DNA of 64,000 nt from the IMG/VR virus record IMGVR_UViG_3300020219_000001, one strand, 5' to 3'. The stretch comes from an uncultured virus (IMG/VR IMGVR_UViG_3300020219_000001) (Duplodnaviria; Heunggongvirae; Uroviricota; Caudoviricetes). Both the position numbers and the translations under genes were made by a program. The notes under the pieces were generated by a model, which was not told where the DNA came from, did no database searches, and worked only from the letters and a program-made list of their open reading frames with translations. This document shows positions 5,858 to 32,102 of the stretch, piece after piece; position 1 is the stretch's first letter; every line of letters begins with the position of its first letter.

Positions 5858-5885
5858 TTGACTTGCAAGTTTCTTGGTACATACT
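5858..5885 (+). promoter_or_regulatory. Early promoter TTGACT-N16-CATACT, copy 1
   Basis: AGTTTCTTGGTACATACT identical in four intergenic copies. Confidence 0.8.
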
Positions 5886-5921
5886 TGTCTTGTCGGACCA
5901 ACAAGACTTCAGGATAAAACG

Positions 5922-6611
5922 ATGCTCTACGTCACGTATTTGCGGGTTAGCACACAGAAGCAGGGTGAATCGGGCCTGGGCGTGGACGCCCAACGCACGG
6001 CGGTGACCAAGTTCACTGCGGATGGTAGCGTGCTCGCCGAGTTCGTCGAGGTCGAGAGCGGCAAGAAGGCCGCCCGGCCGCAGCTAAAAGCCGCGTTGGC
6101 ACTCTGCCGGCAGCGCGGAGCTACGCTCGTGGTCGCAAAACTCGACCGCCTCGCGCGAAACGTGCTCTTCACGGCCACGCTCATGGAAGCCGGCGTCGAT
6201 TTCATCTGCTGCGACATGCCTTCAGCCACTCGGCTGACGATCCACCTGCTCGCGGCGATCGCCGAGGACGAGGCTCGACGTATCAGCGCCCGTACCAAGG
6301 CTGCTTTGTCGGAATTGAAGGCGAAGGGAGCACAACTTGGCTCCGCGCGGCCGGGCCATTGGGACGGACGAGAGCATCGACGTGGCTGGAACGGCATTCC
6401 CGCTGCTCGCAAGCTCGCAATGAAGCGAGAAAAGTTGAATCTGAGCTACGCCGAGTCACTTCCCGTGATCCGGGTGCTGAAAGAACGTGCTGCCACCTAC
6501 TTGGAGATCGCTTCGGCGCTCAACGCCCAGGGCATCAAGACACCACGAGGTCACATCTTTACCGCCAGTGCCGTTTGTGAGGTCATCCAACGTCTCGAAG
6601 CCGTTGCCTAA
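5922..6611 (+). CDS. Serine recombinase (resolvase/invertase family)
   Basis: YLRVSTQKQ catalytic Ser motif, ESG..RPQL, AKLDRLAR, E...IS.RTKAAL, short C-terminal helical domain. Confidence 0.93.
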   Translation: MLYVTYLRVSTQKQGESGLGVDAQRTAVTKFTADGSVLAEFVEVESGKKAARPQLKAALALCRQRGATLVVAKLDRLARNVLFTATLMEAGVDFICCDMPSATRLTIHLLAAIAEDEARRISARTKAALSELKAKGAQLGSARPGHWDGREHRRGWNGIPAARKLAMKREKLNLSYAESLPVIRVLKERAATYLEIASALNAQGIKTPRGHIFTASAVCEVIQRLEAVA

Positions 6612-17526: not shown

Positions 17527-17797
17527 AGCAATCTCCTTTGATGGGAGATTCTAACCGCGCAAAGAGCCGCGGTCAAACATGTGACCAGAAAGGGTCAGTA
17601 GTGCCGAAGGCTTCGATCCCCTTCAGCATGTTCTCGAAGGCTTCTTCGAGCGTTGCGCCGCCACGAGTGATTACCTTACGGTAGACCATCATGCGGCGTT
17701 CGTCGCGGTACGGCTTGCAGCCGACCCAAGCCGTGGCTTCGATCCCACACTCGTGGAGACCGAGCGTCCATCGCCACGGCTTAGGCACGCGATCGAG

Positions 17798-17872
17798 CAT
17801 GGGTGACAGGACTTGAACCTGCAACGACTGGTTTTGGAGACCATCGCTCTTGTCCAGTTGAGCTACACCCAT
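17798..17872 (-). tRNA. tRNA-Trp (CCA anticodon), 3' CCA not encoded
   Basis: Acceptor ATGGGTG/CACCCAT, D-arm GCTC/GAGC, loop CTCCAAA, T-arm GCAGG-TTCAAGT-CCTGT, discriminator G. Confidence 0.9.
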
Positions 17873-17875: not shown

Positions 17876-18013
17876 TTAGTCCTCCGTGATCCCCTTCTTG
17901 AATTCCGTGATCCCCTTGCCGAGGGATCGCGCGACATCGGGCAGCCGCGAGCCAAATAACAGCAACCCGATGCCGGCAATCACAATGAGTTCAGGAATGC
18001 CGAGACCAAACAT
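17876..18013 (-). CDS. tatA: Twin-arginine translocase TatA/E subunit (45 aa)
   Basis: MFGLGIPELIVIAGIGLLLFGSRLPDVARSLGKGITEFKKGITED: TM helix, FG hinge, LP, LG..I.EFK amphipathic helix; not in the ORF track. Confidence 0.92.
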   Translation of the reverse strand: MFGLGIPELIVIAGIGLLLFGSRLPDVARSLGKGITEFKKGITED

Positions 18014-18420
18014 TACTTGGTCCCCGGTGCGAAGCGGTAACCGCTCGCTCGCAAGTCCTCGATCTTAGCGTCGATGTCCGTGTCCGCGGGAACGATTCCA
18101 CGATCTTTGAACACCTCGAACACCTCCCTCGCCCAGAATTCAGGGACCCCTGTGTGCTCCCGCAGCCGCACGTCGGGTACCACGTCGATCCCACTGGCCT
18201 GGCCGAGCAAATCAACTTCGTAGCCGGCGTCGATGGCCTTGCGGAAGGCGTGCATGATGCCAACTCGTAGTTGGTACTCGCTAACGGCTTCTTTGACTTC
18301 GTGTTGCATGGCTTGTCGTGCCTTCTTGGATGCGTTGCGTTTGGATCGCTTCGTGGCCTTGTGGCACGTGGCGTCGTTGCTCTGCGTGATCGAACGGGCT
18401 TTGATTTCCTTACGTCTCAC
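18013..18420 (-). CDS. Hypothetical protein (start uncertain)
   Basis: Coupled to tatA and the upstream gene. Confidence 0.5.
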   Translation of the reverse strand: MRRKEIKARSITQSNDATCHKATKRSKRNASKKARQAMQHEVKEAVSEYQLRVGIMHAFRKAIDAGYEVDLLGQASGIDVVPDVRLREHTGVPEFWAREVFEVFKDRGIVPADTDIDAKIEDLRASGYRFAPGTK

Positions 18421-18746
18421 CAGTCGTACTCCACTTTCGTCGGCTGAGCGCCCAAGGACTGAAGGAACGGCTCGACCTTCTCCATGAAGCACTTCGGACA
18501 GACGTGGTACTCGGTGCGGTTGAGATCACCGCCCCCGTCGTAGCCGTAGCCCGATGACTTGAATTGGAGGAAGATCGCCGTCCGCGCGGTGTCGTATTCG
18601 TCCTGTCGCCACTCAATTGACCCCTCAGGGTCGAGCGGGCGACGGTACTTGATTTCCAGCTTGCAGATGTCGCACTGGGCGGACTTCTCGCGCAGAACTT
18701 CACGTGCGGGAATTGCTGGTATGATGTGTTTCTCTTGAAGGATCAT
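18417..18746 (-). CDS. Zn-binding protein
   Basis: CDIC...HVCPKC. Confidence 0.7.
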   Translation of the reverse strand: MILQEKHIIPAIPAREVLREKSAQCDICKLEIKYRRPLDPEGSIEWRQDEYDTARTAIFLQFKSSGYGYDGGGDLNRTEYHVCPKCFMEKVEPFLQSLGAQPTKVEYDW

Positions 18747-19009
18747 TACTTCCTCGGCGACGTGTAGTGACAGACGGGGTAGATGCTGCAACCGATGAAC
18801 GGCAACCCCGTCAGCCGGTTGCGCCGCTTCTCCAGCGGACTCTCGCACACCGGGCAGGGTTCGCCCTTCCGTGTGTCACAGTAACCTTCGAGCTTCCGCT
18901 TGTACCGGAAGCTCGTGATCCAGTTCCAACCCTTCGCGAGCAAGAACGCCAGGAAGCCGGCCGCGGCGACTTCGCCGACGCCGCCGCAAAGTCCACAGGC
19001 TAGGATCAT
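18746..19009 (-). CDS. Protein with a topoisomerase-type C4 zinc finger and hydrophobic N-terminus
   Basis: CPVCESPL..R......FIGCSIYPVCHYT. Confidence 0.75.
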   Translation of the reverse strand: MILACGLCGGVGEVAAAGFLAFLLAKGWNWITSFRYKRKLEGYCDTRKGEPCPVCESPLEKRRNRLTGLPFIGCSIYPVCHYTSPRK

Positions 19010-19482
19010 ACTTTCTTCTCCCGTAGATCGGCGAAGATGCCGCAGGCGTACCAGGTCTTGTTCTGAGGGCGATAGACCATCGCGTAGCCGTAGGAGTCGC
19101 ACTTCCCGTTCACGGCTCCCCAGTGACCTGGGGACTGCCGCCAGGAGTTGTACATCTCCTTGGCGGCGTCACCCAAATCTTGGTCGGGCCATGATTCGTT
19201 GGCGACCTCGCGGAATTCGTGAGAATCGGGCATCTGCTTGAAGAGGACAGCGACACGCTGGTCCCACTTCTGATGCCCTTGGACGCCACGCGCGGCCTGG
19301 TATTGAGCGTGGGCTTCCGCGGCAGCCTGAAGGATCGGATTCAACTTCCCTGTTGTCAGGCTGCGGACCTTGAGGCGAATGCCTTCGTCGATAAGAGCTT
19401 GATGCTCTTTCGCTATGGCCGGCTTCTTCTCCGGCTGCGGCTTCTTCTCCGGCTTCTTATCAATGAAATTGTAGTCGGTCAT
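19006..19482 (-). CDS. CAP/SCP domain protein
   Basis: LQAAAEAHAQY..GH, EVANES, SWRQSPGHW, WYACGIFA. Confidence 0.8.
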   Translation of the reverse strand: MTDYNFIDKKPEKKPQPEKKPAIAKEHQALIDEGIRLKVRSLTTGKLNPILQAAAEAHAQYQAARGVQGHQKWDQRVAVLFKQMPDSHEFREVANESWPDQDLGDAAKEMYNSWRQSPGHWGAVNGKCDSYGYAMVYRPQNKTWYACGIFADLREKKV

Positions 19483-19928
19483 TTCGCCTTTCTTTGAAGC
19501 TCCTCCTTCACGAGATCGTAAGTCTCTTGACGGGTCGGCTTCTTCTTGTTTTTCACTTCGAGTTGAAGCGCTTTTTTCCGCATGAGCGACCTTGCCTCGC
19601 TCTTGTGGATGTCGAACTCTTTGGCGAGCATCTCAGGATGCCGCCAGCTTTTCTTCTGGCCGGCCGCCTGAGCCTTCTGGGTATCCGTCTTCTCTTCTTC
19701 GGTGGGCCGGACGGCTCCAAGCGAGACGACCGTCGCCGCGGCAGACTCGACCGAGGGACACTCGATCCGTGCCTTGTCCACCGTGACCGTGATCGGCCCC
19801 TTGGACATTTCCAGGACGTGCTTGGCAGTCGGCTTCTTCAGCACCGAGCAGCTAGCCGCGAATGCGGCAGCGTGCTCCGGCGAGTCACAACCGACCTTGA
19901 TGCCGAAAATCTCGACTTCGATGGACAT
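19479..19928 (-). CDS. Hypothetical protein
   Basis: ATGA-coupled to the CAP gene. Confidence 0.7.
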   Translation of the reverse strand: MSIEVEIFGIKVGCDSPEHAAAFAASCSVLKKPTAKHVLEMSKGPITVTVDKARIECPSVESAAATVVSLGAVRPTEEEKTDTQKAQAAGQKKSWRHPEMLAKEFDIHKSEARSLMRKKALQLEVKNKKKPTRQETYDLVKEELQRKAK

Positions 19929-20022
19929 GAGTAGTTCCTAGGCTGGGGGAGTAAAAGCAACGTACTACCCAAGTGTAGCACGTTGCTTCTAGCTGTCAAC
20001 TTCGGAGTTACTTGCGAACTAA

Positions 20023-20337
20023 CTACTCGTCGTCGTCGTCGTCGTCGTCCTCGTCCTCGTCGTAGTAGTCGTCATCGTCATCGTCGTCATCTTCGTCCCA
20101 GTCGTCATCGTCCCAGTCGTCGTCTAGGTCGTCGTCGAGGTCTTCCTCGTCGTCGTAGAGGTCGTCATCGTCGTCCCAGTCGTCGTCTTCGTCCTCGTCG
20201 TCTTCGTCCTCGTCGTCCTCGTCGTAGAGGTCGTCGTCCTCGAAGTCGTCATCGTCGGCGAGCGCATTCACGGGGGTGAATACGTGGTGGCCGCGGCCGG
20301 TAATGGACGGAATCACGAACGGAGCGGTCACACGCAT
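20023..20337 (-). CDS. Extremely acidic low-complexity protein (start uncertain)
   Basis: About 75 residues nearly all D/E, with interspersed W, Y, L, F. Confidence 0.65.
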   Translation of the reverse strand: MRVTAPFVIPSITGRGHHVFTPVNALADDDDFEDDDLYDEDDEDEDDEDEDDDWDDDDDLYDDEEDLDDDLDDDWDDDDWDEDDDDDDDDYYDEDEDDDDDDDE

Positions 20338-20672
20338 GGAATCAAACCCTCGGAAAGTGGAAAAGCGTTGGGCGCAAGAGCTTCCTGGTCGAAGCGGGAG
20401 ATGTTGAACAGGTCCCCCTCATGGCGGACCACCACGGCTTCAATCACCGGGTCCCGGATCGCCTCCAGCCCGCGATCCACGGCGGGAACGCGGTACAACG
20501 TGGCGTGCGCCCCGGGTTCCAGCACGGCCCACTTCTCGGACCCCTGCCGGCGGTAAAGAATCTTGTACTGCAACATGTGGTTCTCCTTTCGACAGAACAC
20601 TATGACTACACGCGACTTGCGATCGTGTTCAAACAAAACGGATTAACTATTTTGAGGATTTTTCGGATTGCG

Positions 20673-20709
20673 CCGGATAAAAGGGTCGAAACGGGATATG
20701 ATAAGTATG
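20673..20709 (+). promoter_or_regulatory. Second promoter class CCGGRT-N13-CGGGAYATGATAAGTRTG, head of the late operon
   Basis: Three copies with identical spacing (also 58345-58381 minus and 58613-58649). Confidence 0.7.
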
Positions 20710-20740
20710 TAAGTAAGTTGTGACCTGAGAAGCTAGTATC

Positions 20741-21310
20741 ATGGAAGTTGTTACATACCCGGAGGACCCGCGGCGGTGCCGAGCGGCCGACAAGCACGGA
20801 CAGTGCTGGAACGTCGCCCTAACCGGTACCTTCTGCCCTACTCACCGGGTGCCTGGCCAGTTGACGCCGGAAGCCGACCGACGCCGCGTGTATAACTTGA
20901 CCAAGGCTCGCTTCAAGGAGCGGCTGGAAGACAAGATGAGCATGGGGCCTCCGGGCAACCTCGACGAGCTAATCCGTATTACGGAGTTGCTTCACGAGGA
21001 CACGCTTAACGACCCCGCGATCAAGGATCAGGTTGTCATCAACCGAGAGCATCACGCTTTCGTTCAATCCATCACGCGACTAAACAAGGCCGCGAGAGAA
21101 TTGAAAGAGCAGTCGGATGAGCTTCTCGGCCGTCCGGCGATTGTCTTCTACAGCCAGCAAGTCATCCAACTCATCATTGACGAGTTGCAAGGCGTGGACG
21201 GCTGGGAAGCTAAGATCGACCGTATTACTGGAAGAATGCTCGAAACGATCGAGCTTACTACTAATTCCCCAAAGGAGGACTCTCATGGAGTTCCTGACCA
21301 AGCTGGCTAA
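20741..21310 (+). CDS. Putative terminase small subunit
   Basis: First late gene; N-terminal C..C..C..H finger then helical region; positional inference. Confidence 0.5.
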   Translation: MEVVTYPEDPRRCRAADKHGQCWNVALTGTFCPTHRVPGQLTPEADRRRVYNLTKARFKERLEDKMSMGPPGNLDELIRITELLHEDTLNDPAIKDQVVINREHHAFVQSITRLNKAARELKEQSDELLGRPAIVFYSQQVIQLIIDELQGVDGWEAKIDRITGRMLETIELTTNSPKEDSHGVPDQAG

Positions 21311-21485
21311 GTCGAAGACGATGATCGTCAACGTCCTGTTCGTGGCCGCTGGCGTCCTAGGTTACCTTGCTGGTGACCAGGTTATCGCTCAGCACCCGGA
21401 ATGGGCCGCTGCGTTCGTCTCGGCCGCGGGCGTCGTGAACATGCTCTTGCGTGTTGTCACGAAGCTGCCGCTGTCTGAGAAGTAA
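21285..21485 (+). CDS. Putative holin (66 aa, two TM segments)
   Basis: AAGGAGG RBS; KSKT..N...N.LLR..T..P pattern. Confidence 0.7.
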   Translation: MEFLTKLAKSKTMIVNVLFVAAGVLGYLAGDQVIAQHPEWAAAFVSAAGVVNMLLRVVTKLPLSEK

Positions 21486-21873
21486 ACACCCCCGTGGATA
21501 GTATCCACGGACCGACGCCGTAAGGCGTTTCTCAGCGAACCTGTCGGGCCTCTCACGGCTATCTCTCGACAGGTGTTTCATGCCTCTCGGCGGCTTTGTA
21601 GCCGAGGCAAGCGCGGACGATCGCCGCGCGTTTCTGACGGTCACAGGCTGGAAACCTGGTCGAGCTACTCTCGCCTCGTCGCAAAGGCCGTCCAATACAC
21701 AAGGGGTCGTATGTCCGACGCTGAAAATCCGCCCTGTGAGTGCGGCAACGTGATTCGCTACCCGAACCACGAGAGATGCGAGGACTGCTGGGCATTCGAT
21801 CAACATCGTTGGCCAGGACACAGCCAGAGAGTCAAAACAACGTCCTGTCCAGACACATCAACCGAGGGAAGAA

Positions 21874-22581
21874 ATGAACAAGCAAAGTCTCCTAACAGCA
21901 ATCGTCCTCGCAGTCGTCGCCCTGTGCGCAGCGGTGCCCTTCCTCCAAAGAGTCCCTACACCCGCTGTATTCACCGATGGTGATACCGCGAAGGTTGTCC
22001 TGAAAGCACCGGACAAGGTCAAGGTCGGCCAACTGGTGACACTGGACGTTTCGGCGAGCACGGCCAACACGTACTCGTGGAAGGTGATCCCGCCCACTGA
22101 GAACTTCCGAGTGATCGAGGGCGGCAAGGAGGCTGTGTTCAGCAGCCAAACCGGCGGCGATTACGTGTTTGTGATCGCTGTCGCGAAAGACGACACGGTG
22201 GACGTTCATGTCCACACGATCAAAGTCACCGGTGGGCAACCGCAACCAGGCGATGACCTGGTGACGAAAGTTGCCTCCTGGTGTGAGAAAGTCGAATCGC
22301 CGACGAAGCGTGACGACGCCCTGAAGCTCGCACAGAGCTTTTCCAGCGTCTCCGCTGTTATCAGTGAAACGATGACGCCTGCCGACATTGTTGAAGCGAC
22401 AAAGAAGTCGAACCGAGACGCTCTCGGTGACAACGTCGAGCAGTGGGTTCCGTTCTTGGAAGGTCTCCAAGCTGAATTGAAGACCTTGGCGGAAGCCGGA
22501 AAGTTAGAAGACACCGCGGCTCATGCAGCCATGTGGCGATCCATCGCGGATGGCCTCAAGGCATACGCTGAGACCTTGTAA
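21874..22581 (+). CDS. Exported protein with an Ig/PKD-like region and helical C-terminus
   Basis: Signal-like N-terminus; VTLDVSAS..YSW. Confidence 0.75.
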   Translation: MNKQSLLTAIVLAVVALCAAVPFLQRVPTPAVFTDGDTAKVVLKAPDKVKVGQLVTLDVSASTANTYSWKVIPPTENFRVIEGGKEAVFSSQTGGDYVFVIAVAKDDTVDVHVHTIKVTGGQPQPGDDLVTKVASWCEKVESPTKRDDALKLAQSFSSVSAVISETMTPADIVEATKKSNRDALGDNVEQWVPFLEGLQAELKTLAEAGKLEDTAAHAAMWRSIADGLKAYAETL

Positions 22582-22598
22582 GAACGGAACGCCCTACC

Positions 22599-23591
22599 AT
22601 GTCGATTAGCCGCCGTAACCTGTTGCTCGCTGGTGGCGCTGCTTTCCTTAGCAGCGCCATGTTTAGGGAAGCCCTAGCCAAAGGCGATCAACCGATATAC
22701 GGCGGCTGGATTGATGATCCTGCTGCTCGACGCACCTTCATTGAGACGCATGAGAAGCCGCTCCTTCGCAACCACGACACCAACATCTTTGGGTCGAGCG
22801 AAGGTAAGTCGGTTCTCCTGTTGCCGTACTACGAGAAGGTGACGGGTAGAAAGTTCAAGCCGTACTTCCAAGACATCGGCGACTGCTGTGGCCAAGCCGG
22901 CACAACGGCCGCTCAAGTCCTCGCTGCGACTCAGATCGTGAAGACGGGTCGCGAGCAGTGGAAGGGTGAGTTCAGCGTCGAGTACACCTACGCCGCCAGC
23001 CGAGTTGAAGTCGGCGGTGGTAAGATTCGTCGCGGCGACGGTTCGACCGGTTCCTGGACGGCTGAGGCGCTCCACAAGTATGGAGTGCTGCTACGAGGGA
23101 AGTACGGGAAGCTCGACCTGACGAAGTACCGCCCTGACCTGGGTAAGTCCTGGGGCAAGAGTGGTGTGGGTGTTCCCGATGAGCTTGAGAAGATCGCGAA
23201 GCTCCACCCGGTCAAGACGATCAGTAAGGTAGAAAGCTGGGATCAAGCCGCGGACTGCGTAGCGAATGGCTACCCCGTCCTGCTGTGCTCCAGCGTTGGC
23301 TACCGACAGACCACGGATAGCGAAGGGTTCCTTCGCCGTAGTGGTACGTGGAACCACGCTCTGTTCCTCGCCGGCATCGACCGACGCAAGGGCAAACGAG
23401 AAGGTGGACTGATCCCGAACTCGTGGGGTGAGAACTGGGTGTCCGGCCCGGCGCACGAACTGGGCACACCTGCTGGATGCTTCTGGGCCGATGCCAAGAA
23501 CATCAACGCCATGATCGAAGAGGGCGACTGCTACGCCTTTTCCAACTACGTCGGTTACCCGTCGCAGAAGCTCGACTACCGACTCTTCTAA
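22599..23591 (+). CDS. Papain-like (C1) cysteine peptidase with a twin-arginine signal peptide
   Basis: SRRNLL + hydrophobic core + ALA; QDIGDCC (Gln/Cys), NHA (His), PNSWG (Asn). Confidence 0.85.
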   Translation: MSISRRNLLLAGGAAFLSSAMFREALAKGDQPIYGGWIDDPAARRTFIETHEKPLLRNHDTNIFGSSEGKSVLLLPYYEKVTGRKFKPYFQDIGDCCGQAGTTAAQVLAATQIVKTGREQWKGEFSVEYTYAASRVEVGGGKIRRGDGSTGSWTAEALHKYGVLLRGKYGKLDLTKYRPDLGKSWGKSGVGVPDELEKIAKLHPVKTISKVESWDQAADCVANGYPVLLCSSVGYRQTTDSEGFLRRSGTWNHALFLAGIDRRKGKREGGLIPNSWGENWVSGPAHELGTPAGCFWADAKNINAMIEEGDCYAFSNYVGYPSQKLDYRLF

Positions 23592-23701: not shown

Positions 23702-24361
23702 ATGATGAACCGTCTGATTCTGTTACTAGTGTTGGGGGTGATGAATGTTCTCCCTGTGGCTGTCGCTCAAGAGGTGGCTCAGAAGCCTGCTAACGAGCAA
23801 GGGACCTACCGACTGGCAAGCGAAGATCAACGAACTGGTGGCAATCGTCAACCGGTGGCTGGACCTTCAAAGCGGGCCAAGCGGTACGTCAGCAAACCCG
23901 AGTTCTACACCATCATCCCCGCCGACCACAGAGCGTCGGCGAAGGATCAGGTGGCTGATTCGTCGAAGACGCAGGATGTAGACGACTGCCCCTGCGGTCC
24001 TGACTGCAAATGTCCCAGTGAGGAGATTTGCAAGAGCGGCGACTGTCAGAAGAACTACATCGTCATGTACTCCGCGAAGTGGTGCTCACAGTGCCCGCGG
24101 ATGAAGCGGACGCTGGCCAAGCTCGAAGAGCAGGGCTACATCGTCTACTACGTGGACACAGACGAAAACCCCGAGAGCGCCGAGACCTACAACGTCACGA
24201 AGCTCCCCACGACCATCATCATGGATAAGGGTGAAGAGGTCACACGGTTCGAGGGCGCGGTGCCCGCGGCCAGCGTCACGGAAGGTGTCAAGAAACGAGA
24301 CGAACAAGACGACGAGCCGGCTCCGGTTGATACCGACACCGACTACGACTTCACTGATTGA
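23702..24361 (+). CDS. Exported thioredoxin-domain protein
   Basis: Sec signal (AVA-Q); Cys-rich linker; AKWCSQC, LPT cis-Pro. Confidence 0.85.
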   Translation: MMNRLILLLVLGVMNVLPVAVAQEVAQKPANEQGTYRLASEDQRTGGNRQPVAGPSKRAKRYVSKPEFYTIIPADHRASAKDQVADSSKTQDVDDCPCGPDCKCPSEEICKSGDCQKNYIVMYSAKWCSQCPRMKRTLAKLEEQGYIVYYVDTDENPESAETYNVTKLPTTIIMDKGEEVTRFEGAVPAASVTEGVKKRDEQDDEPAPVDTDTDYDFTD

Positions 24362-24675
24362 GGTTTGAGATGTTGACCAGTTTCGCAGAAGCCATTGAGA
24401 TCGTTCGTTTGCAGCTTAACGACGACGGTAAGATCGCCAAGAGTGACGACGAAGCTGTCCGCCGGGTCCTAAAGAACCCGATGCTGCAACTGCCGAGCGG
24501 CGAACGAGTCCTGGCACTCCCGCGAATCCACTATCGGGTTCGCCGGCTGTACGCCCGCCTTGAGAAGGCCATTCTGCCTCTCACCTTTGACTGGACCACG
24601 CTCGTCGAATGGATCAAAGAGCACTGGGATGAAATCCTCCGATTCATCCTGATGGTCCTTCCATTCATCATCTAG
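24358..24675 (+). CDS. Hypothetical protein with a hydrophobic C-terminus
   Basis: FDWTTLVEWIKEHWDEILRFILMVLPFII. Confidence 0.7.
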   Translation: MRFEMLTSFAEAIEIVRLQLNDDGKIAKSDDEAVRRVLKNPMLQLPSGERVLALPRIHYRVRRLYARLEKAILPLTFDWTTLVEWIKEHWDEILRFILMVLPFII

Positions 24676-24677: not shown

Positions 24678-24998
24678 ATGCGTCGTCGCAAACGGTGCCG
24701 AGGCTGCACTGATGACAAGCCTCCCACGCCGACGCCCGTCAAGGACGCGACCGTCAAGGTCTACAACAAATACTCCGGCCGCAAGCTCGATGAAGCACTC
24801 CTCACCCGTAGTGGAGAGTCCGCCGCACTGTGGAACCACATCCTGTTTGGGACTGGTACGTGCGTCGGGATGATCGAAGGCTACACACGGCTCGGACTCC
24901 CCGGCAACCCGGCCCCTCAGCTTCGCGACTTGATTGCGAGGTTGGAAGGGGTCGCTGCGTTATACGAAAGCAAACATGAAGATTCAGTTTCCCCATAG
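24678..24998 (+). CDS. Hypothetical protein
   Basis: In operon. Confidence 0.6.
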   Translation: MRRRKRCRGCTDDKPPTPTPVKDATVKVYNKYSGRKLDEALLTRSGESAALWNHILFGTGTCVGMIEGYTRLGLPGNPAPQLRDLIARLEGVAALYESKHEDSVSP

Positions 24999-25350
24999 TC
25001 AGTGGCCCATCACCCGCCTCGTAATCACCGGCCCCGGTGTTGAACTCAAAGCGAATGCTGAACACAGCGTCCCGAGCTTCGAGTTCGATCTGCCGGGAGG
25101 TGTCGATGAGAGCGAACTCAGCATCGTTGCCCAGCACATCAGTTCTGGCGGCCAAGTTGTCGGCGAGTCGCTGGTACAGGTGGCCGTCGAGAAGAAGATC
25201 GAAGACGCCCTCGAACAGGTCCCGGCCGACGTGGACATGGACGCTGTCGTCGAGCACCTGGAATCGGGTGAAACGATCGAGTTGACCAGCAACGACGAAG
25301 ACGAACTCGACGAAGACTTCGACGACGAAGACCTCGAAGACGCCGAGTAA
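24976..25350 (+). CDS. Hypothetical protein with an acidic tail
   Basis: MKIQFPHSQW start within ORF 24934..25350. Confidence 0.65.
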   Translation: MKIQFPHSQWPITRLVITGPGVELKANAEHSVPSFEFDLPGGVDESELSIVAQHISSGGQVVGESLVQVAVEKKIEDALEQVPADVDMDAVVEHLESGETIELTSNDEDELDEDFDDEDLEDAE

Positions 25351-25479: not shown

Positions 25480-27150
25480 ATGAACCCGCTAGCAAAGGAG
25501 ATGCAACGGTCTATCGCCGAAGGCTTGATGGGTCGAACGCTCGCAGGTAGTTGCTCCCGCTGGGCGACCAAGCGGCGCGTGATGGGTGGTGACTTTCCCG
25601 GACCTTACTCCTGGAAGTACCACCCGTGGTGCAAAGAGCTTCACGACACGCAAGCGCCTGAAAACTACGCGATGAAGGGTGCCCAGCTTGGCGTCACGGA
25701 AGTGGCGATCAACCGGGCCTTCTACACGATCGACCAGTTGAAGAGGGATGTGCTCTACGTCCTCCCGACCGCTCAAACAGCGTCGGACTTCTCGAAGGGT
25801 CGATTCACCGTTGCGTTGAAGCACAGCGAATACTTGGCCAGTATCTTCACGGACACCAACACGGTGAACATGAAGCAGGCCGGTACCTGCAACTTGTACA
25901 TCCGCGGCTCACGAGGTGAAAGTAACCTCGTGTCGTTGCCGATCTCCGAGTTGATCCTGGACGAATTGGACAGGATGGCTCAGAAGGAGATCGCGGAAGC
26001 GAAGGAGCGCGTCACCGGTCAGAAGAAGCATCACATCTGGGGGTTATCGACGCCAACGATTCCGAACTACGGAATCCACAAGCTCTATAACCAAGGTACG
26101 CAGGAGCACTACACGTTTAAGTGCCCGCACTGCTCGCGTCACACCGAGCTTATCTACCCGGAATGCTTAGAGATCGTCGGCGACTCGGTACATGACATCA
26201 GGTGCAAAGAGTCCTTCCTAAAGTGTAAGGAATGCAAGCATCGCCTGGAGCACGAGCTAAAGCCTGACTGGCTAGCTGACGGTTCTTGGCACAGCATGGC
26301 CCCGAACGCAAACCCGGACAAACGAACCTTTCATATCAGCCAGATGTACTCCTTCACGGTGACACCTGGCGACCTCGCGGTTGCTTACTTCGCCGGCCTC
26401 GGCGACGAAGCGATGGCGAAAGAGTTCCACAACTCAAAGCTCGGCCTCCCGTTCATCGGTGAAGGTGCCCAAGTCACTGACGACCTGATCGAACAGGCCA
26501 TCGGTCGCTACACGATGAATGACGAACGTCCACGAATTGGTGGCGAGCGACTCATCACGATGGGTATCGACCAAGGACAGATCGTCTCGCACTGGGTTGT
26601 CTGTGAGTGGTTCGTTGACCAGATGTCCTCGGACATCAACATCGCCGCGAAGTGCAAGGTTCTTGCACACGGCAAATTCATGGGTGAGGACTGGCACGTT
26701 GCCGAGGACCTCATGGCTGAATGGCAGGTCTTAGCGTGTGTTGTTGACGCTGATCCTCAGATCGCTGAGGCACGTCGCTTCGCTAAGAAGTTCCCACGCT
26801 ACGTCACACTGTGCCGCTACCGCAGAGGCAAAGTCGCTCGCGAGATTTCCATCGCGGACGACGAGTCCGGCGTGGAGATGGCGACAGTAGACCGAACCAA
26901 CTGGCTAACCACATCGCTCGGACGGTTCCGCAACAAGCGGATCATGCTTCCCGCGGACGTGTCGGTTGAGTATCGGGAAATGATGAAGGCCCTAGTTCGC
27001 ACCTACGTCAAAGACGAGGACGGGAACTACATGGCCACGTTTGTTGAAACCGCACCTGACCACTACGCACACGCCTTCAACTATGCCGAGATCGCCCTGC
27101 CGTTGGCAGCTTCGATCACGACAGGGAAGGACGTTAGTAAGTTCTTGTAA
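25480..27150 (+). CDS. terL: Terminase large subunit (lambda GpA-like)
   Basis: MKGAQLGVTE Walker A, LILDELD Walker B, STPT, CPHC, MGIDQG nuclease, PDHYAHA. Confidence 0.93.
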   Translation: MNPLAKEMQRSIAEGLMGRTLAGSCSRWATKRRVMGGDFPGPYSWKYHPWCKELHDTQAPENYAMKGAQLGVTEVAINRAFYTIDQLKRDVLYVLPTAQTASDFSKGRFTVALKHSEYLASIFTDTNTVNMKQAGTCNLYIRGSRGESNLVSLPISELILDELDRMAQKEIAEAKERVTGQKKHHIWGLSTPTIPNYGIHKLYNQGTQEHYTFKCPHCSRHTELIYPECLEIVGDSVHDIRCKESFLKCKECKHRLEHELKPDWLADGSWHSMAPNANPDKRTFHISQMYSFTVTPGDLAVAYFAGLGDEAMAKEFHNSKLGLPFIGEGAQVTDDLIEQAIGRYTMNDERPRIGGERLITMGIDQGQIVSHWVVCEWFVDQMSSDINIAAKCKVLAHGKFMGEDWHVAEDLMAEWQVLACVVDADPQIAEARRFAKKFPRYVTLCRYRRGKVAREISIADDESGVEMATVDRTNWLTTSLGRFRNKRIMLPADVSVEYREMMKALVRTYVKDEDGNYMATFVETAPDHYAHAFNYAEIALPLAASITTGKDVSKFL

Positions 27151-27167: not shown

Positions 27168-28961
27168 ATGGCTGACGGATTGCCCAAGCTTGTTGATAGT
27201 CGGCACCCCTACTTCTTCGAGAATTGCGGCGACTGGCATAAGTGGCGCACGTGCTACTCAGGTGGGGACCGCTTCAAGGACAACTACCTAGTCCAGTTCA
27301 GTAATCGCGAAGACGCGGATGACTTCCGCGACCGCAAGTTCTTCACTCCGACCACGGTCTTCGCGAAGTCCGCGGTCAACAAGATTCGCAACTCCATCTT
27401 CCAACGGTTGGGTGACGTAACACGACAGGGTGGTAGCTCTGATTACCATCGAGCTATCGCGGGTGAGAAGCAAGGCGTGGACCGACGTGGTGCCACGATG
27501 AACTTCTTCCTGGGTAATAAGGTCTTGACGGAATTGTTGGTGATGGGTCGTGTCGGCGTCTACGTCGATATGCCCGAAATCCAACAGACCTCGACGATCG
27601 CCAGTGCTAAGGACTTAGCTCCTTACCTGTACAGCTACCCTGTCGAGAACATCCTCAACTACACCTGCACGAAGCCTGAAGCTCCTAGCGAGTTCCAATC
27701 CATCCTGCTGAAGGACTCAATCCTGAGGCACGATGCGATCAGCTTCATGCCGGTTGCCTACAACGACCGCTATCGGTACGTCTGGATCAGCCAGGACACC
27801 GGACTCGTGAACATCCAGTTCTACGACTCCAACGGTGAACCTGTTGATCGCGACGGTAACCCCGGCGGTCCAATCGAGTTGGGCCTGACTCGCATCCCGT
27901 TCGTCCTGATGGACATCGGTGACAGCCTGTTGAAGGACATCTGCGATCACCAGATCGCTCTGCTCAACCTCGAATCCAGCAACGTCAACTACGCCTTGAA
28001 GGCCAACTTCCCGTTCTACACCGAGCAGCGTGACATGCGTGCTGTCGGTGGACACTTGAAGAAAGTCAACACGGACGGCACTGCCACCACGGGTGGACAG
28101 GGCAACACGGACGAGAAGGTCAGCGTTGGTGTGACCCAAGGTCGTTACTACGACAAGGACACCGAACGCCCCAGCTTCATTGCACCTCCAGCCGAGCCTC
28201 TTGAGGCCACGATGAAGTTGCAGGACAAGCTGGAGAGCGACATCAACAAGATCGTCAACCTCGCAGTCACAAGCATGGGCGGCCGAGTGTCGGCTGAGTC
28301 CAAGAAGATGGACAACCAGGGCTTAGAAGCCGGGTTGTCGTTCATCGGGCTGGTCCTCGAAGGTGGTGAGCGACTCATCGCTGACTACTGGAGCAGCTAC
28401 GAAGAGAAGGTCGAGTCGAAACGCAAGACCGCCACGATCAAGTACCCGGATCGCTACAGCCTCAAGACCGACCTCGATCGAATCGAGGAGGCCGAGAAGT
28501 TGTCCGAACTGATGTACAAGGTTCCCAGCCCTCTCGCCAAGCGTGAGATCGCGAAGAACATCGTGAACGCTCTGTTCGGCGGCAAGGTCAGTGTCACCCA
28601 ACTGGAAGCAATCCAGAAGGAGATCGACACGACGCCTTACACGACCAGCGACCCGAAGACGATCATCGACGCGAAAGACGCCGGCCTTGTCGGCGAGAAG
28701 ACAGCTTCGATGGCCCTCGGCTTCAATGAGGACGAGTACCTCACGGCACGGAAGGATCACATCCGCCGCGCCACAGAGATCGCCAAGGTTCAAGGCATCG
28801 CCAAAGGCGGTGACGATCCGGGTGCCCGCGGAGTGTCTGACTTGTCGTCCAACCCGAAAGCCGGGAAGGACGAGAAGGAAGCAAGCCGTAACACGGACTT
28901 GAACACAACCACCAAGAAGCCGGTTCGAGGCGCAGGCCAAGAAACCGCTGAAGAGGAATAG
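27168..28961 (+). CDS. Portal protein
   Basis: Follows TerL; 597 aa; GRVGVYVDMP, IPFV, SAESKKMD. Confidence 0.85.
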   Translation: MADGLPKLVDSRHPYFFENCGDWHKWRTCYSGGDRFKDNYLVQFSNREDADDFRDRKFFTPTTVFAKSAVNKIRNSIFQRLGDVTRQGGSSDYHRAIAGEKQGVDRRGATMNFFLGNKVLTELLVMGRVGVYVDMPEIQQTSTIASAKDLAPYLYSYPVENILNYTCTKPEAPSEFQSILLKDSILRHDAISFMPVAYNDRYRYVWISQDTGLVNIQFYDSNGEPVDRDGNPGGPIELGLTRIPFVLMDIGDSLLKDICDHQIALLNLESSNVNYALKANFPFYTEQRDMRAVGGHLKKVNTDGTATTGGQGNTDEKVSVGVTQGRYYDKDTERPSFIAPPAEPLEATMKLQDKLESDINKIVNLAVTSMGGRVSAESKKMDNQGLEAGLSFIGLVLEGGERLIADYWSSYEEKVESKRKTATIKYPDRYSLKTDLDRIEEAEKLSELMYKVPSPLAKREIAKNIVNALFGGKVSVTQLEAIQKEIDTTPYTTSDPKTIIDAKDAGLVGEKTASMALGFNEDEYLTARKDHIRRATEIAKVQGIAKGGDDPGARGVSDLSSNPKAGKDEKEASRNTDLNTTTKKPVRGAGQETAEEE

Positions 28962-29271: not shown

Positions 29272-29592
29272 ATGGATGTCACGAAAGAGTCCGTTGAGGA
29301 ATTCTACAACGGGCACGCGACGGTCGGACTGACCAGAGTAAAACTGACTGGCACTCTAAGCTTCCCGCTAAACAAGGGAATCTTACTTCGCTGTCCTGGT
29401 GGGACTGACCCCAACCCTAACTCCGATCCCATCTGGGTCGGTGGGGCTGGTGTAACTGCTGACAGCGCCGCCGGCTCTGGTGGTATGCCAATGATCCCGG
29501 GTGATGTGCTTTTCATCCCCATCGACCGGTCAGACAAGCTGTGGGTTATTTCCACGGACACTGACCAAGACATTGCTTGGATGGGAATCTAA
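29272..29592 (+). CDS. Small beta-rich virion protein, paralogue 2
   Basis: [10 protein letters not shown]...[12 protein letters not shown]...DQ..AW. Confidence 0.75.
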
Positions 29593-29594
29593 CT

Positions 29595-32102
29595 ATGGGC
29601 GGTATCTTCTTCGCACGCAGCGGCGGCCCGACAGGTCCGCAAGGCCCTCCCGGGGACGTTGGTCCTCCGGGTAGCGGCGTAATCAACTGGCTAGGCTTGT
29701 GGGATGAAGAGACCGAGTATGTTGCAAACGATGCCGTCAACTTAGACGGATCAAGTTTCATCTGCATACTAACCCATACCAACCAGCAGCCGCCGAACGC
29801 GACCTACTGGGATGTGCTCTCAAGCAAGGGCGATACCGGCAGCACCGGTAGCACGGGAGCCACAGGTCCCGCTGGCCCGGCGGGTCCGCAAGGGAACCAA
29901 GGCCCGGCAGGTCCGCAAGGTACGCAAGGAGCCACGGGTTCGACAGGATCGCAAGGTCCGGTCGGCAACACGGGGTCCACGGGTCCCACTGGTCCGACGG
30001 GTCCCATTGGTCTCGTCTGGCGCAACGCTTGGAACAGCGGCACGGCCTACGTGGCGAATGACGGTGTCGTCTCTGACGGCTCCTCATACATCTGCATCCT
30101 GGGCCACACCAATCATCAACCGCCGAACGCAACCTACTGGACTCTGTTGGCGGCCGAGGGCGAACAAGGCCCAACCGGCTCACAAGGTCCACAAGGCGAG
30201 CAAGGCGATGCCGGCCCCGAAGGTCCTGAAGGACCTGAAGGCCCTACCGGCGGTACGGGCAGCACGGGACCCACGGGTCCCGCTGGCTTGAACTGGTTAG
30301 GGACCTGGAACAGCGGCACGGCTTACGTCGTTGACGACGCCGTGGTCCGCAGCGGTACGTCCTACGTCTGCATTCTCAATCACACCAATCATCAACCGCC
30401 GAACGCAACCTACTGGGATGTGCTCGCGGCGAAGGGTGACACGGGCGACCAAGGTCCTCCGGGCACCGGTATCGTTTGGGAAGGTGCTTGGGATAACGGA
30501 ACCGCATACACCGAGAACGACGCCGTCTTCCACGAAGGCTCGTCTTACGTCTGCGTCTCCGATCACACCAATCAAGAGCCGCCGAATATCACTTACTGGG
30601 AACTCTTCGCACAGAAGGGTGACACCGGTGAACAAGGTATCCAAGGTGAACAAGGTGAGCAGGGAGAACAAGGCGAGCAAGGTGAGCAGGGTGACACCGG
30701 CGCGACAGGCTCCACTGGTTCGACCGGTGCCACAGGCCCGGGTTACTTCACAACGAGCACGACCAGCTTAGCCATCGGCACGGGGACGAAAGTCTTCACT
30801 GTACAGACGGGGCTAGCTTGGAGCATCGGTGCTCGCGCAAGGGCAACCTCCGCGGGATCGCCGAGCAACTGGATGGAAGGCGTCGTGTCGAGCTACTCCG
30901 GTAGCACGCTCACGATCGAGATGGATCGAACCCTTGGGGCCGGCACATTCGCTGACTGGAACATCCATGTCGCTGGCCAACCTGGTGACACCGGCTCCAC
31001 TGGTGCCACGGGCGACGAAGGCCCGCAAGGCGACCCTGGTGATCCTGGTGATCCTGGCGACGACGGAGACGATGGTCTCGACGCCATGTCGGAGCCGAAC
31101 TGCCGCTTGTCGCTCGCGACTGGTGATCCACTCGGCAGCGGCACAGCACAGAGCACATTGTATTTGGTCCCCTTCAAGGGTAACCGAATTTCGTTGTACG
31201 ACGGTGCAAACTGGGTAACACATTTCCTCACGAGTCAGTTGTCTCTGGCGGTACCTTCGACAATCTTCCAGTTGTTCGACATCTTTGTCTACGACAACGG
31301 TGGCACACTAACGCTTGAGACACAGAACTGGAGTCTAACGTCCGGGGCAATCAGTGCGGCGACGAACGCTTCACCGATTGTCATCACAGCGATCACGACC
31401 GGTCTCAGCAATGGTGACTTGGTCGGCATCGCGGGTGTGACTGGTAACACTGCGGCGAACGGAATCTGGCAGGTCACTGGTCTGTCAGGCGGCAACTTCA
31501 GTCTGCTCGGCTCGACCGGTAACGGTGCCTACGCCGGTAACGGTGTTTGGTACAAGTTGAACGGTAACACTAACTCGGGTCTCACAACCCAAGATGGTGT
31601 GATCGTGAAAACCGGCTCAACAGGTAAGCGATACTTAGGCGTCGGCATGACGATCGGGACTTCCGGTCAATGCACGTCAAGCCTCGCACGCTCGTGGCTG
31701 GCGAATTTGTACAACCCGATCCGTCACGTGATGACGTATTTCGATACGACAAGTCACACCTACGCTTCGAGTACGACTCGGCCTTGGGCAAACTTAGGTG
31801 CTGCCCATCTGACGCATCTCGTACCGAGAGGAATGATGGTCGTCCAGAACGGTATTATCGCACCCCTCTTCACAGGAGATGGTAGCTCCATCCCCACAGT
31901 GGGTATGGGCAACGGCAATATCAACGCGATGAACATGTACGTGGCGGCAACCGCCTCCAGCGGTTCACAGCGTTTTGCCGCGACGGGTGTGACGGAAGTC
32001 AGCAACGAAGGTTTCAACTACTACGGCATCTGCGAAGAACGGCAAGGCTCCGGCACTGCCAACTTCACACAGGTTGTCGCACAGTTAGATGTGGTGAGGT
32101 AA
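29595..32102 (+). CDS. Collagen-like fibre with four CBM5/12-like modules
   Basis: G-X-Y runs alternating with W.G.W...T.Y..ND.V...GSSY.C...HTN..PPN.TYW. Confidence 0.88.

What the first reader, a model, noticed from the sequence alone, without database searches (positions are those of the whole stretch)
17876..23591. Phage-encoded TatA plus a twin-arginine papain-like protease in the lysis position
Seen: a 45-aa TatA and, 4.6 kb away, a C1 peptidase starting MSISRRNLLLAGGAAF..ALA. The peptidase sits between a holin-like gene, an exported Ig-like protein, an exported thioredoxin and TerL. No glycosidase or amidase endolysin is recognisable in the window. Established: TatA forms the translocation element and needs host TatC. 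Inference: the phage boosts or hijacks Tat to export a folded protease which, with a periplasmic thiol reductase, attacks a protein-rich or disulfide-linked envelope. This would be a non-canonical lysis system.
Basis: partly seen in the sequence, partly recalled or inferred. Interest (0 to 1): 0.78.

Follow-up and report, generated by a model that had tools for sequence, protein, structure and literature searches.

The report
Tat-exported phage protease cassette
An uncultured phage, probably of planctomycete bacteria, carries next to its DNA-packaging genes a conserved gene set for a papain-like protease with a signal for folded export through the host Tat pathway, plus its own Tat pore subunit; this may be an unusual way of opening the cell envelope.

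Summary
A 45-aa TatA (17876-18013, minus) and a 330-aa papain-fold peptidase with a twin-arginine signal (22599-23591) are both real. No known endolysin family is found in the window.

The peptidase belongs to a large, mostly viral family with no Pfam or PHROG match. In at least 45 viral contigs its Tat-signal form sits in a fixed cassette just upstream of TerL. The cassette order is:
- a small 2-TM protein;
- a Cys-rich small protein;
- a membrane-anchored PKD/helical protein (p235);
- the peptidase;
- a thioredoxin;
- a tail-anchored membrane protein.

p235 is predicted to hold the peptidase by its C-terminal Y-x-L-aromatic tail, and tail and partner co-occur. Ten complete related genomes lack the five commonest endolysin families.

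TatA is not an obligate partner: it is present in 4 of 49 related records. It does track phage-encoded Tat substrates and is planctomycete-like. Thioredoxin is paired with the peptidase even where both lack signals, so it probably serves the enzyme rather than attacking the envelope.

A lysis role is the best reading (about 0.45) but is unproven. Half of this phage's genome was not seen.

The parts
17876..18013 (-). Phage TatA, 45 aa: TM helix, F-G hinge and amphipathic helix only, with no C-terminal tail
   Evidence: PF02416 at E 2.4e-14. 62-70% identical to TatA of 6 of 6 Planctomycetota genomes and 39-53% to 6 of 6 genomes of other phyla. A homologue sits at the same relative place in the prophage remnant L107.
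17797..17872 (-). tRNA-Trp (CCA) directly downstream of tatA
   Evidence: ARAGORN
20741..21310 (+). p189, conserved protein of unknown function at the head of the cassette
   Evidence: tblastn hits in 22 loci; no Pfam or PHROG hit
21285..21485 (+). Small membrane protein, 66 aa, two hydrophobic helices (holin-like by size and topology only)
   Evidence: Hydrophobicity scan; conserved in 23 loci; no PHROG hit for this 66-aa form and no Pfam hit at E<=10 for the shorter 53-aa form 21324-21485; the 66-aa form itself was not put to Pfam
21711..21983 (+). Small Cys-rich (zinc-ribbon-like) ORF; the start is my choice of ATG within ORF 21573-21983, and the tail overlaps p235
   Evidence: The Cys-rich core is conserved in 11 loci
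21874..22581 (+). p235: N-terminal signal or anchor, PKD-like beta domain, Pro-rich linker and C-terminal helical domain; predicted docking partner of the peptidase
   Evidence: An N-terminal hydrophobic segment is present in 43 of 53 homologues. Alignment A4. Present upstream in 34 of 34 Tat-form loci that have enough flank. Complex prediction. PKD is a lead only.
22599..23591 (+). Papain-fold (C1-like) cysteine peptidase: Tat signal (residues 1-27, RR at 5-6, ALA|K), pro-like segment (about 28-65), catalytic Q91/C96/H253/N274, C-terminal tail LDYRLF
23702..24361 (+). Thioredoxin with a Sec-type signal, a Cys-rich linker and a WCSQC active site
   Evidence: PF00085 at 2.9e-13. Downstream of the peptidase in 33 of 41 Tat-form loci. 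A signal is present in 23 of 46 homologues.
24358..24675 (+). p105: tail-anchored membrane protein (C-terminal TM)
   Evidence: Hydrophobicity scan; conserved in 18 loci
24678..25350 (+). Two small ORFs (24678-24998 and 24934-25350) between the cassette and TerL; one may be the small terminase (inference)
   Evidence: Conserved in 7 and 4 loci; no family hit
25480..27150 (+). Large terminase (gpA type), marking the start of the packaging and head genes
   Evidence: PF05876 at 2.5e-30, phrog_675 at 1.3e-91

Best explanation
The window is part of a roughly 126-kb tailed phage of an uncultured clade. This GC-rich branch most likely infects Planctomycetia. Directly upstream of its terminase genes lies a conserved, envelope-directed cassette.

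The cassette's enzyme is a papain-fold cysteine peptidase. It is made with a twin-arginine signal and a short pro-like N-segment. The proposed sequence of events is as follows.
1. The peptidase folds in the cytoplasm. In some relatives it must also splice out an intein that sits at the catalytic Cys.
2. The host TatBC machinery exports it.
3. The phage's own minimal TatA adds pore subunit, so that a late burst of this substrate does not saturate the pathway.
4. Outside the cytoplasm, the peptidase is held by its C-terminal Y-x-L-aromatic tail on the helical domain of the membrane-anchored protein p235.
5. The adjacent thioredoxin serves the enzyme's thiol.
6. With the two small membrane proteins as timers, the peptidase then cuts protein or peptide links of the envelope to let the progeny out.

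Shown by computation: fold, catalytic residues, signal, synteny, and co-occurrence of the tail with p235. Inferred: Tat dependence, TatA boosting, latency, the substrate, and lysis itself.
For: Enzyme:
- Papain fold: Foldseek E 2.6e-12; VIA-align Z 22.5, rmsd 2.9, 241 aligned, to xylellain.
- Q91, C96 and H253 are invariant among 28 sequences.
- Zymogens align from model residue about 20 at Z 19-20. Mature enzymes align from residue about 45-68 at Z 17-18. This suggests a pro-like segment.

Signal:
- 44 of 44 distinct N-termini have RR within 12 residues.
- 33 of 44 are RRxFLK-like.
- 41 of 44 have an uncharged run of at least 12 residues.

Cassette, in 45 Tat-form viral loci:
- p235 is upstream in 34 of 34 loci with enough flank, thioredoxin downstream in 33 of 41, and TerL in 34 of 34.
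- The 2-TM protein is found in 23 loci and the tail-anchored protein in 18.

Docking:
- The complex model supports binding but does not show it. The score is 0.75 and the best control 0.01. That mark was reached by 116 of 157 solved complexes and 2 of 215 mismatched pairs.
- The runs share at least 62% of their contacts, and the partner's pLDDT is at least 83.
- The interface is peptidase residues 325-330 against p235 residues 169-206.
- Of 38 loci with the tail motif, 38 have the p235 helical domain. Of 50 loci without the motif, 46 lack it (not corrected for phylogeny).

No rival lysin:
- 186 ORFs of the complete relative G017 show no endolysin domain.
- PF00959, PF01510, PF01464 and PF01520 are in 0 of 33 related records, 10 of them complete. 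PF13539 has no hit over its cut-off.
- PF01183, PF01551, PF00877 and PF05257 are in 0 of 5 complete Tat-form genomes.

TatA link:
- The peptidase is the only convincing Tat-signal ORF in the window and in G017.
- In G056, TatA is flanked by two other Tat-signal ORFs.
- Of 16 viral records with this TatA type, 8 carry the peptidase family; among the complete ones, 4 of 5.
- TatC is absent from 3 phage records and present in 2 planctomycete genomes.

Host:
- 22 of 29 genome hits lie in Planctomycetota.
- L107, on a 7.8-Mb Planctomycetia contig, is a syntenic remnant with TatA, p189, p235 and the peptidase's N-terminal half next to an integrase.
Against: - No activity, export or lysis has been measured.
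- C1-type peptidases are not known wall hydrolases.
- Signal-less family members in distant phages sit among glycosyltransferase, sigma-factor, PAS and RNR genes.
- Copies in Mucilaginibacter and Tundrisphaera lie in non-phage chromosomal contexts. The family is therefore not intrinsically a lysin.
- TatA is absent from 45 of 49 related records and occurs with signal-less peptidases in G056 and G059.
- Half of the thioredoxins (23 of 46) have no signal.
- The 2-TM protein and p105 match no holin family, and no spanin was identified.
- About 62 kb of this phage's own genome was not available, so an ordinary endolysin could lie there.
- An exported protease needs restraint until late in infection. 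The restraints proposed here (pro-segment, docking, redox) are inferences.
- The co-occurrence counts are not independent, because the loci are related.
- The window's TerL found no relative at E<=1e-30 in 401 sampled Planctomycetota genomes.
Confidence: 0.45

Rival explanations
1. One reading: TatA and the protease are an obligate pair, and the exported thioredoxin reduces disulfide cross-links of a protein envelope so that the protease can digest it.
For: In this window both the thioredoxin and the protease carry export signals. The likely host phylum was long described as having an SDS-resistant proteinaceous wall (passages in PMC3422733). TatA and the protease are syntenic in the Planctomycetia remnant L107.
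Against: TatA is in only 4 of 49 related records. The thioredoxin has no signal in 23 of 46 loci, most of them with Tat-form peptidases. Trx-fold genes also follow signal-less peptidases in 4 of 12 distant loci scanned. That points to a partner of the enzyme rather than of the envelope.
Confidence: 0.12
2. The cassette is periplasmic but not lytic. The tethered protease trims host surface or periplasmic proteins during infection. Possible purposes are destroying receptors, excluding superinfecting phage, or remodelling the envelope. Lysis is done by something else.
For: Docking to a membrane anchor suits a localised, specific protease. Family members in other phages and in bacteria sit in non-lysis contexts. 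No holin or spanin family is recognised.
Against: The gene set is present in every Tat-form locus with enough flank. It is placed where late lysis genes often lie, and it is flanked by two small membrane proteins. No other envelope-degrading enzyme was found in complete relatives.
Confidence: 0.25
3. The protease is an accessory lysis factor for an outer layer, comparable to mycobacteriophage LysB or to spanins. An unrecognised or unseen endolysin handles the peptidoglycan.
For: Planctomycetes do have peptidoglycan (passage in PMC12673574; abstract of PMC4432640 in the listing). About half of this genome was not seen. Many ORFs have no family assignment.
Against: No candidate endolysin was found in the complete relative G017 with Pfam, or with PHROGs run on 45 of its unassigned ORFs. 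None of the endolysin families tried appeared in complete relatives.
Confidence: 0.15
4. tatA is a host-derived passenger gene with no functional tie to the protease.
For: It lies 4.6 kb away on the other strand. In relatives it is 20-70 kb from the protease and is absent from most of them.
Against: The TatA-bearing phages examined encode Tat-signal proteins, and in G056 two of these flank tatA. This TatA type was found in only 16 viral loci, half of them in records that carry the peptidase family. The phage copies resemble each other and are all trimmed to the functional core.
Confidence: 0.2

Closest known systems
Xylellain and the papain (C1) family, including procathepsins
   Same: Same fold (Z 22.5 to 3ois; Z 17-20 to cathepsins and papain). 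The Gln/Cys/His/Asn residues and the NSWG motif are conserved. An N-terminal segment aligns with pro-regions.
   Different: No PF00112 match at E<=10 and 10-22% identity. It carries a Tat signal, a C-terminal docking tail, a phage context, and in some members an intein at the catalytic Cys.
Exported endolysins (SAR and signal-peptide endolysins such as P1 Lyz, phage 21 R, Mu gp22)
   Same: The lytic enzyme would cross the membrane by a host pathway before lysis and be held inactive at the membrane. Small membrane proteins are encoded alongside. Only the listing abstract of PMC9239132 was seen for Mu; the other examples are recalled.
   Different: Those enzymes are muramidases exported by Sec. 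Here the enzyme is a papain-fold peptidase with a Tat signal. The tether would be a separate protein that binds the C-terminal tail.
PeiP/PeiW pseudomurein endoisopeptidases and CHAP / NlpC-P60 lysins
   Same: These are papain-clan cysteine peptidases used by viruses to cut wall peptides (passages and reference list of PMC10318531).
   Different: They have the minimal papain-like core and belong to other families. PF05257 and PF00877 were not found in 5 complete relatives. None has a Tat signal, as far as I recall.
Mycobacteriophage LysB
   Same: A second, non-muralytic lysis enzyme aimed at an unusual outer layer (listing abstract of PMC13578437).
   Different: LysB is an esterase, it is not Tat-exported, and it accompanies a normal endolysin.
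Bacterial TatA/TatE
   Same: PF02416 match with TM helix, F-G hinge and amphipathic helix; 62-70% identical to planctomycete TatA.
   Different: Virus-encoded and cut down to 45 aa. The host matches lie in open frames of 69-204 aa. No TatC is encoded alongside.

Membership tests
Peptidase C1 (papain family, Pfam PF00112) | Two-lobed papain fold | tested here: met
   Foldseek E 2.6e-12. VIA-align Z 22.5, rmsd 2.9, 241 aligned, to 3ois; Z 17-20 to cathepsins and papain. Model pLDDT 89.5.
Peptidase C1 (papain family, Pfam PF00112) | Catalytic Cys-His with oxyanion Gln and orienting Asn | tested here: met
   Q91, C96 and H253 are invariant and N274 is conserved in at least 90% of 28 sequences. The His and NSWG stretch aligns to cathepsin K. 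Superposition of the side chains was not inspected.
Peptidase C1 (papain family, Pfam PF00112) | Match to the family profile above the curated cut-off | tested here: not met
   No PF00112 hit at E<=10. In the ESM Atlas, PF00112 is carried by only 20-54% of members of neighbouring clusters.
Peptidase C1 (papain family, Pfam PF00112) | Thiol-dependent proteolysis | not testable with these tools
   Needs an enzyme assay
Tat substrate | Twin-arginine motif (S/T-R-R-x-F-L-K) near the N-terminus | tested here: met
   SRRNLLL in the window. RR is present in 44 of 44 distinct N-termini, and 33 of 44 are RRxFLK-like.
Tat substrate | Weakly hydrophobic h-region and a c-region with A-x-A | tested here: met
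   Read from the sequence: NLLLAGGAAFLSSAMF, then R-E-A-L-A|K, with a basic residue in the c-region. 41 of 44 N-termini have an uncharged run of at least 12 residues.
Tat substrate | Match to Pfam TAT_signal (PF10518) above the cut-off | tested here: not met
   E 1.4, 9.5 bits against a cut-off of 22.7
Tat substrate | Export that depends on TatC and on the RR pair | not testable with these tools
   Needs RR-to-KK and tatC-null tests
TatA/B/E (PF02416) | Profile match above the cut-off | tested here: met
   52.7 bits against a cut-off of 21
TatA/B/E (PF02416) | N-terminal TM helix, F-G hinge and amphipathic helix | tested here: met
   F20, G21 and the downstream RLP...S.G...FK.G positions are invariant in 5 phage copies
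TatA/B/E (PF02416) | Works with TatC in translocation | not testable with these tools
   TatC is absent from G001, G017 and G056 and present in the Planctomycetia genomes G062 and G063
Holin-endolysin lysis cassette | Enzyme of a recognised wall-degrading family | tested here: not met
   None among the window ORFs or among the 186 ORFs of G017
Holin-endolysin lysis cassette | Small membrane protein(s) encoded beside the enzyme | tested here: met
   A 66-aa 2-TM protein and the tail-anchored p105, conserved in 23 and 18 loci. Neither matches a holin family.
Holin-endolysin lysis cassette | Spanin or equivalent for the outer membrane | tested here: inconclusive
   No PHROG lysis-category hit. 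p235 has an anchored, helical periplasmic layout but also a PKD-like domain.
Holin-endolysin lysis cassette | Causes lysis | not testable with these tools
   Needs expression and knock-out tests
Thioredoxin (PF00085) | Profile match and a CxxC active site | tested here: met
   E 2.9e-13. WCSQC in the window. CxxC is present in all 46 homologues listed.

The most novel reading that the evidence does not exclude
A proteolytic, Tat-dependent exit system. A folded papain-type zymogen is exported by the host Tat pathway, with a virus-encoded TatA supplying extra pore subunit. The zymogen is parked on a dedicated membrane anchor through its C-terminal tail and is kept competent or switched on by a dedicated thioredoxin. 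When released, it digests the envelope of planctomycete-type hosts in place of a muralytic endolysin. On the literature searches run here, this would be the first viral Tat component and the first Tat-routed lysis enzyme to be described.
Probability: 0.3. Interest if true: 0.85.

Novelty: new variant of a known kind. Interest (0 to 1): 0.64.

Why it matters
- Phage lysis is understood almost wholly from muralytic endolysins that leave the cytoplasm through holins or by Sec. A clade of 80-230-kb phages with none of the common endolysin families tried, but with a conserved exported protease cassette, would widen that picture.
- It would also give a first handle on how viruses leave planctomycete-type cells. 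The 2025 review of the phylum mentions phage once (find on PMC12673574).
- A virus-encoded TatA would show that phages can tune the folded-protein export pathway. I found no such case in print (a find for 'phage' in the 2026 Tat review PMC13673990 gave no phage Tat component).
- The tail-to-anchor pairing and the peptidase-thioredoxin pair are concrete, testable partnerships in a family of more than 1,500 sequence clusters that has no curated annotation.

Tried and rejected
- The window's own assembly is not held, so the other half of the genome could not be searched. I used the nearest record G001 and complete relatives instead.
- tblastn of the peptidase against 50,697 GenBank phage records gave no match at E<=1e-5, so no cultured phage gives a host or an annotation.
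- PHROGs gave no hit for the peptidase, p235, the 2-TM protein or p105.
- The earlier-findings look-ups returned nothing.
- The window's TerL against 401 sampled Planctomycetota genomes gave nothing at E<=1e-30. The host call therefore rests on the remnant L107, the spread of the family and the likeness of TatA. A 61%-identical TerL lies on a 3-kb contig of an Anaerolinea MAG; I read it as a binned phage fragment.
- PF00182 and PF05838 searches were empty, but their controls rang nowhere, so they say nothing.
- My first Tat regex misfiled loci and was redone. Two of the four 'Tat' calls in bacterial genomes (L105, L110) are regex hits in GC-rich upstream frames, and I do not trust them.
- I considered a haloarchaeal host because of their heavy Tat use, and dropped it on inspection: the proteins are not acidic and TatA is bacterial in type (no dedicated test).
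- Literature searches for Tat-routed endolysins, phage C1 peptidases and phage tatA found nothing relevant. The 'tatA' hits I checked were TATA boxes.

Full report
WHAT IS THERE

The window is phage DNA. It holds:
- a gpA-type large terminase (25480-27150);
- a portal (27168-28961);
- a scaffold protein and a P22-type coat (35500-36915);
- a tape measure (41345-44908);
- a ClpP-like protease and replication genes.

The window's own assembly is not held. The nearest virus record, G001 (41 kb), shares 60% of sampled words. The identical peptidase was seen on a contig of 126,586 bp. So the window is about half of the genome.

TatA. ORF 17876-18013 (minus strand, 45 aa) matches PF02416 at 52.7 bits against a cut-off of 21. 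It consists of only the TM helix, the F-G hinge and the amphipathic helix. A tRNA-Trp abuts it.

The peptidase. ORF 22599-23591 has no Pfam or PHROG match. A model built on 28 homologues has pLDDT 89.5. It is a papain fold:
- Foldseek gives E 2.6e-12 to xylellain.
- VIA-align gives Z 22.5 (rmsd 2.9, 241 aligned), followed by cathepsins and papain at Z 17-20.
- Q91, C96 and H253 are invariant and N274-S-W-G is nearly so.
- phmmer aligns the His and NSWGENW stretch to cathepsin K.

Zymogens align from model residue about 20 at Z 19-20. Mature enzymes align from about 45-68 at Z 17-18. Residues 28-65 therefore probably lie where a pro-segment lies. This is an inference, because I could not inspect coordinates.

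The N-terminus is a textbook Tat signal: S-R-R-N-L-L-L, a Gly/Ala/Ser-rich core, then R-E-A-L-A|K. Among 44 distinct N-termini of the Tat-form relatives:
- 44 have RR within 12 residues;
- 33 are RRxFLK-like;
- 41 have an uncharged run of at least 12 residues.
Pfam's TAT_signal model stays below its cut-off.

THE FAMILY

phmmer against 1.84 billion representatives finds 1,561 proteins at E<=1e-3. The ESM Atlas places the nearest clusters among viruses, 84-100% by cluster. Some of these clusters are auto-named papain family protease, and 20-54% of their members carry PF00112. The family has three forms.

- Tat-signal form: 45 of 80 viral loci.
- Signal-less form, starting just before the conserved G-W: 28 of 80 viral loci. 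Another 7 of 80 are cut at the 5' end.
- Intein-bearing form: 7 of the 80. The intein sits exactly at IGD|C...HN|C, so the catalytic Cys is the +1 residue. Five of these seven also have Tat signals.

The family was not found in GenBank phages.

In bacterial genomes, 22 of 29 hits lie in Planctomycetota, judging by record titles. Some are chromosomal and not in phage context: Mucilaginibacter among glycosyltransferases, and Tundrisphaera among kinases. The Planctomicrobium copy is prophage-borne, upstream of a gpA terminase.

THE CASSETTE

In the Tat-form loci the neighbourhood is fixed. tblastn with the window's proteins gives these counts:
- p235 upstream in 34 of 34 loci with at least 1.5 kb of flank;
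- thioredoxin downstream in 33 of 41;
- TerL in 34 of 34.

Further members are also conserved:
- p189, in 22 loci;
- a 66-aa two-helix membrane protein, in 23 loci;
- a Cys-rich small ORF, in 11 loci;
- the tail-anchored p105, in 18 loci.

p235 has an N-terminal hydrophobic segment in 43 of 53 homologues; most of the rest are cut by locus ends. After that come a PKD-like beta domain (lead only), a Pro-rich linker and a conserved helical domain.

A PREDICTED PARTNERSHIP

I folded the mature peptidase (residues 28-330) with p235 (residues 36-235), each with its own alignment. The model supports binding; it does not show it.
- The score is 0.75 (runs 0.80, 0.75, 0.75) and the best of three controls is 0.01.
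- That mark was reached by 116 of 157 solved complexes and 2 of 215 mismatched pairs.
- The runs agree in at least 62% of contacts, and the partner's pLDDT is at least 83.
- The interface is the last six residues of the peptidase (LDYRLF) in a groove of the p235 helical domain (residues 169-206).

An independent look agrees. A C-terminal Y-x-[LIFMV]-[aromatic/aliphatic] tail is present in 38 loci, and all 38 have a p235 helical-domain homologue. Of 50 loci without the tail, 46 lack one. Four signal-less loci with the tail (L008, L010, L016, L024) are exactly the signal-less ones with the helical domain. Two loci that keep only the PKD part (L009, L017) lack the tail. These loci are related, so the Fisher value overstates the case.

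THE THIOREDOXIN

In the window it has a Sec-type signal, a Cys-rich linker and a WCSQC site. Across loci, 23 of 46 homologues have a signal or anchor. The other 23 are 86-102-aa proteins without one, most of them beside Tat-form peptidases. In 12 distant signal-less loci scanned with Pfam, a Trx-fold gene follows the peptidase directly in 4: L048, L062, L037 and L071. The pairing is therefore with the enzyme, not with the compartment. Most simply, the thioredoxin keeps or makes the catalytic thiol reduced. Where it lacks a signal it may act before export or ride along; this was not tested.

TatA

Forward count: PF02416 is in 4 of 49 related records and in 2 of the 8 that are at least 90% complete. 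In those records it lies 20-70 kb from the peptidase.

Reverse count: a pattern scan of 2.9 million viral contigs found only 16 loci with this TatA type. It can miss other types. Eight of the 16 records carry the peptidase family. Among the complete ones the count is 4 of 5.

The pairing is not specific to the Tat form:
- G056 and G059 have signal-less peptidases.
- Five records have Tat forms: the window/G001, G007, G010, G017 and G018.

Other observations:
- The peptidase is the only convincing Tat-signal ORF in the window and in complete G017.
- G056 is complete, has 34% GC, and its structural module is syntenic with the window's. There, tatA is flanked within about 1 kb by two other Tat-signal ORFs, and a third lies elsewhere.
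- The phage TatAs are alike and all but one are trimmed to 45-55 aa.
- No TatC is present in G001, G017 or G056. Two Planctomycetia genomes have TatC and two or more TatA/B copies.

My reading is that TatA is an optional helper which travels with phage-encoded Tat substrates. The idea that it adds pore subunit when a late substrate is made in bulk rests on established Tat biology and was not tested here. DeLisa et al. 2004 on saturation of Tat export was seen only in the reference list of PMC13673990.

HOST

L107 lies on a 7.8-Mb Planctomycetia contig next to an integrase. It carries, in the window's order:
- homologues of the window genes at 6642, 10433 and 15715;
- TatA (62% identical);
- the CAP-domain gene (54%);
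- the gene at 20328, then p189;
- p235 (54%);
- the N-terminal half of the peptidase (43%).

The window's TatA is 62-70% identical to TatA of 6 of 6 Planctomycetota genomes and 39-53% identical to 6 of 6 genomes of other phyla. Relatives with 34-45% GC (G056, G017) must have other hosts. Planctomycete envelopes were long described as SDS-resistant protein walls, and peptidoglycan components were later detected (passages of PMC3422733 and PMC12673574).

IS IT LYSIS?

For:
- The cassette is placed at the head of the late genes.
- It has two small membrane proteins and an exported enzyme.
- It is conserved throughout the clade.
- No alternative enzyme was found. The complete relative G017 has no endolysin domain among 186 ORFs or among 45 unassigned ORFs run against PHROGs.
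- PF00959, PF01510, PF01464 and PF01520 are in 0 of 33 related records, 10 of them complete, and PF13539 has no hit over its cut-off.
- PF01183, PF01551, PF00877 and PF05257 are in 0 of 5 complete Tat-form genomes.

Against:
- Nothing has been measured.
- The family also occurs in non-lysis contexts.
- No holin or spanin family is matched.
- Half of this genome is unseen.

I put lysis at about 0.45, a non-lytic periplasmic role at about 0.25, and an accessory lysis role at about 0.15.

NOVELTY

Nothing comparable turned up in the literature searches, which covered:
- Tat-routed endolysins;
- phage C1 peptidases;
- phage-encoded TatA;
- Tat-signal cysteine proteases in lysis.
The 2026 Tat review mentions phage only for PhiX174 and SlyD (find). 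I saw passages and listings only, not whole papers, and no supplements.

I file the finding as a new variant of a known kind: a lysis-type cassette with an exported enzyme. The new features are the enzyme class, the export route, the docking partner and the virus-encoded TatA.

Noticed in passing
L020, L044, L046, L047, L059, L061, L080 (peptidase homologues): An intein is inserted exactly before the catalytic Cys (IGD|C...HN|C). Five of the seven also carry Tat signals, so splicing and folding must precede export, which fits the Tat route.
   Followed up: partly
G056 (L146-L152): 116488-116733, 117774-117905, 118547-119026: In a complete relative with 34% GC, tatA is flanked by two small ORFs with clear RRxFLK signals. 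One of them has a lipobox-like ISSC. A third Tat-signal ORF lies at 58569-59063.
   Followed up: partly
window 20023-20337 (-): A 104-aa ORF made up almost wholly of Asp/Glu runs, with a high coding score. It might be a DNA mimic or some other decoy; it was not examined.
   Followed up: no
window 29577-32102 (+): An 841-aa tail-fibre-like protein with collagen triple-helix repeats and four CBM_5_12 (chitin-type) carbohydrate-binding modules.
   Followed up: no
window 19006-19482 (-): A CAP/SCP-domain protein (PF00188, E 1.6e-4), conserved at 54% identity in the Planctomycetia remnant L107. This is unusual cargo for a phage.
   Followed up: no
window 5874-6611 (+): A serine recombinase (resolvase/invertase type). 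Together with the integrated remnant L107, it hints that the lineage is temperate.
   Followed up: no
window 51637-52203 (+): A ClpP-like protease gene placed after the large tail genes rather than next to the portal and coat genes.
   Followed up: no
G017 (L116-L120): This complete relative encodes an RNA-repair and translation set: Ro60/TROVE, RtcB, two RNA ligases, Thg1, peptide deformylase and an RF-1-domain release factor.
   Followed up: no
L045, L037, L071 (signal-less loci): A trypsin-like serine peptidase gene lies one or two genes upstream of the papain-like peptidase, and a Trx-fold gene lies downstream in two of the three loci.
   Followed up: no
window 38256-38978 and 38989-40014 (+): These two adjacent genes cross-match the same region of G056 in tblastn. 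They are probably paralogous tail-tube-type proteins.
   Followed up: no
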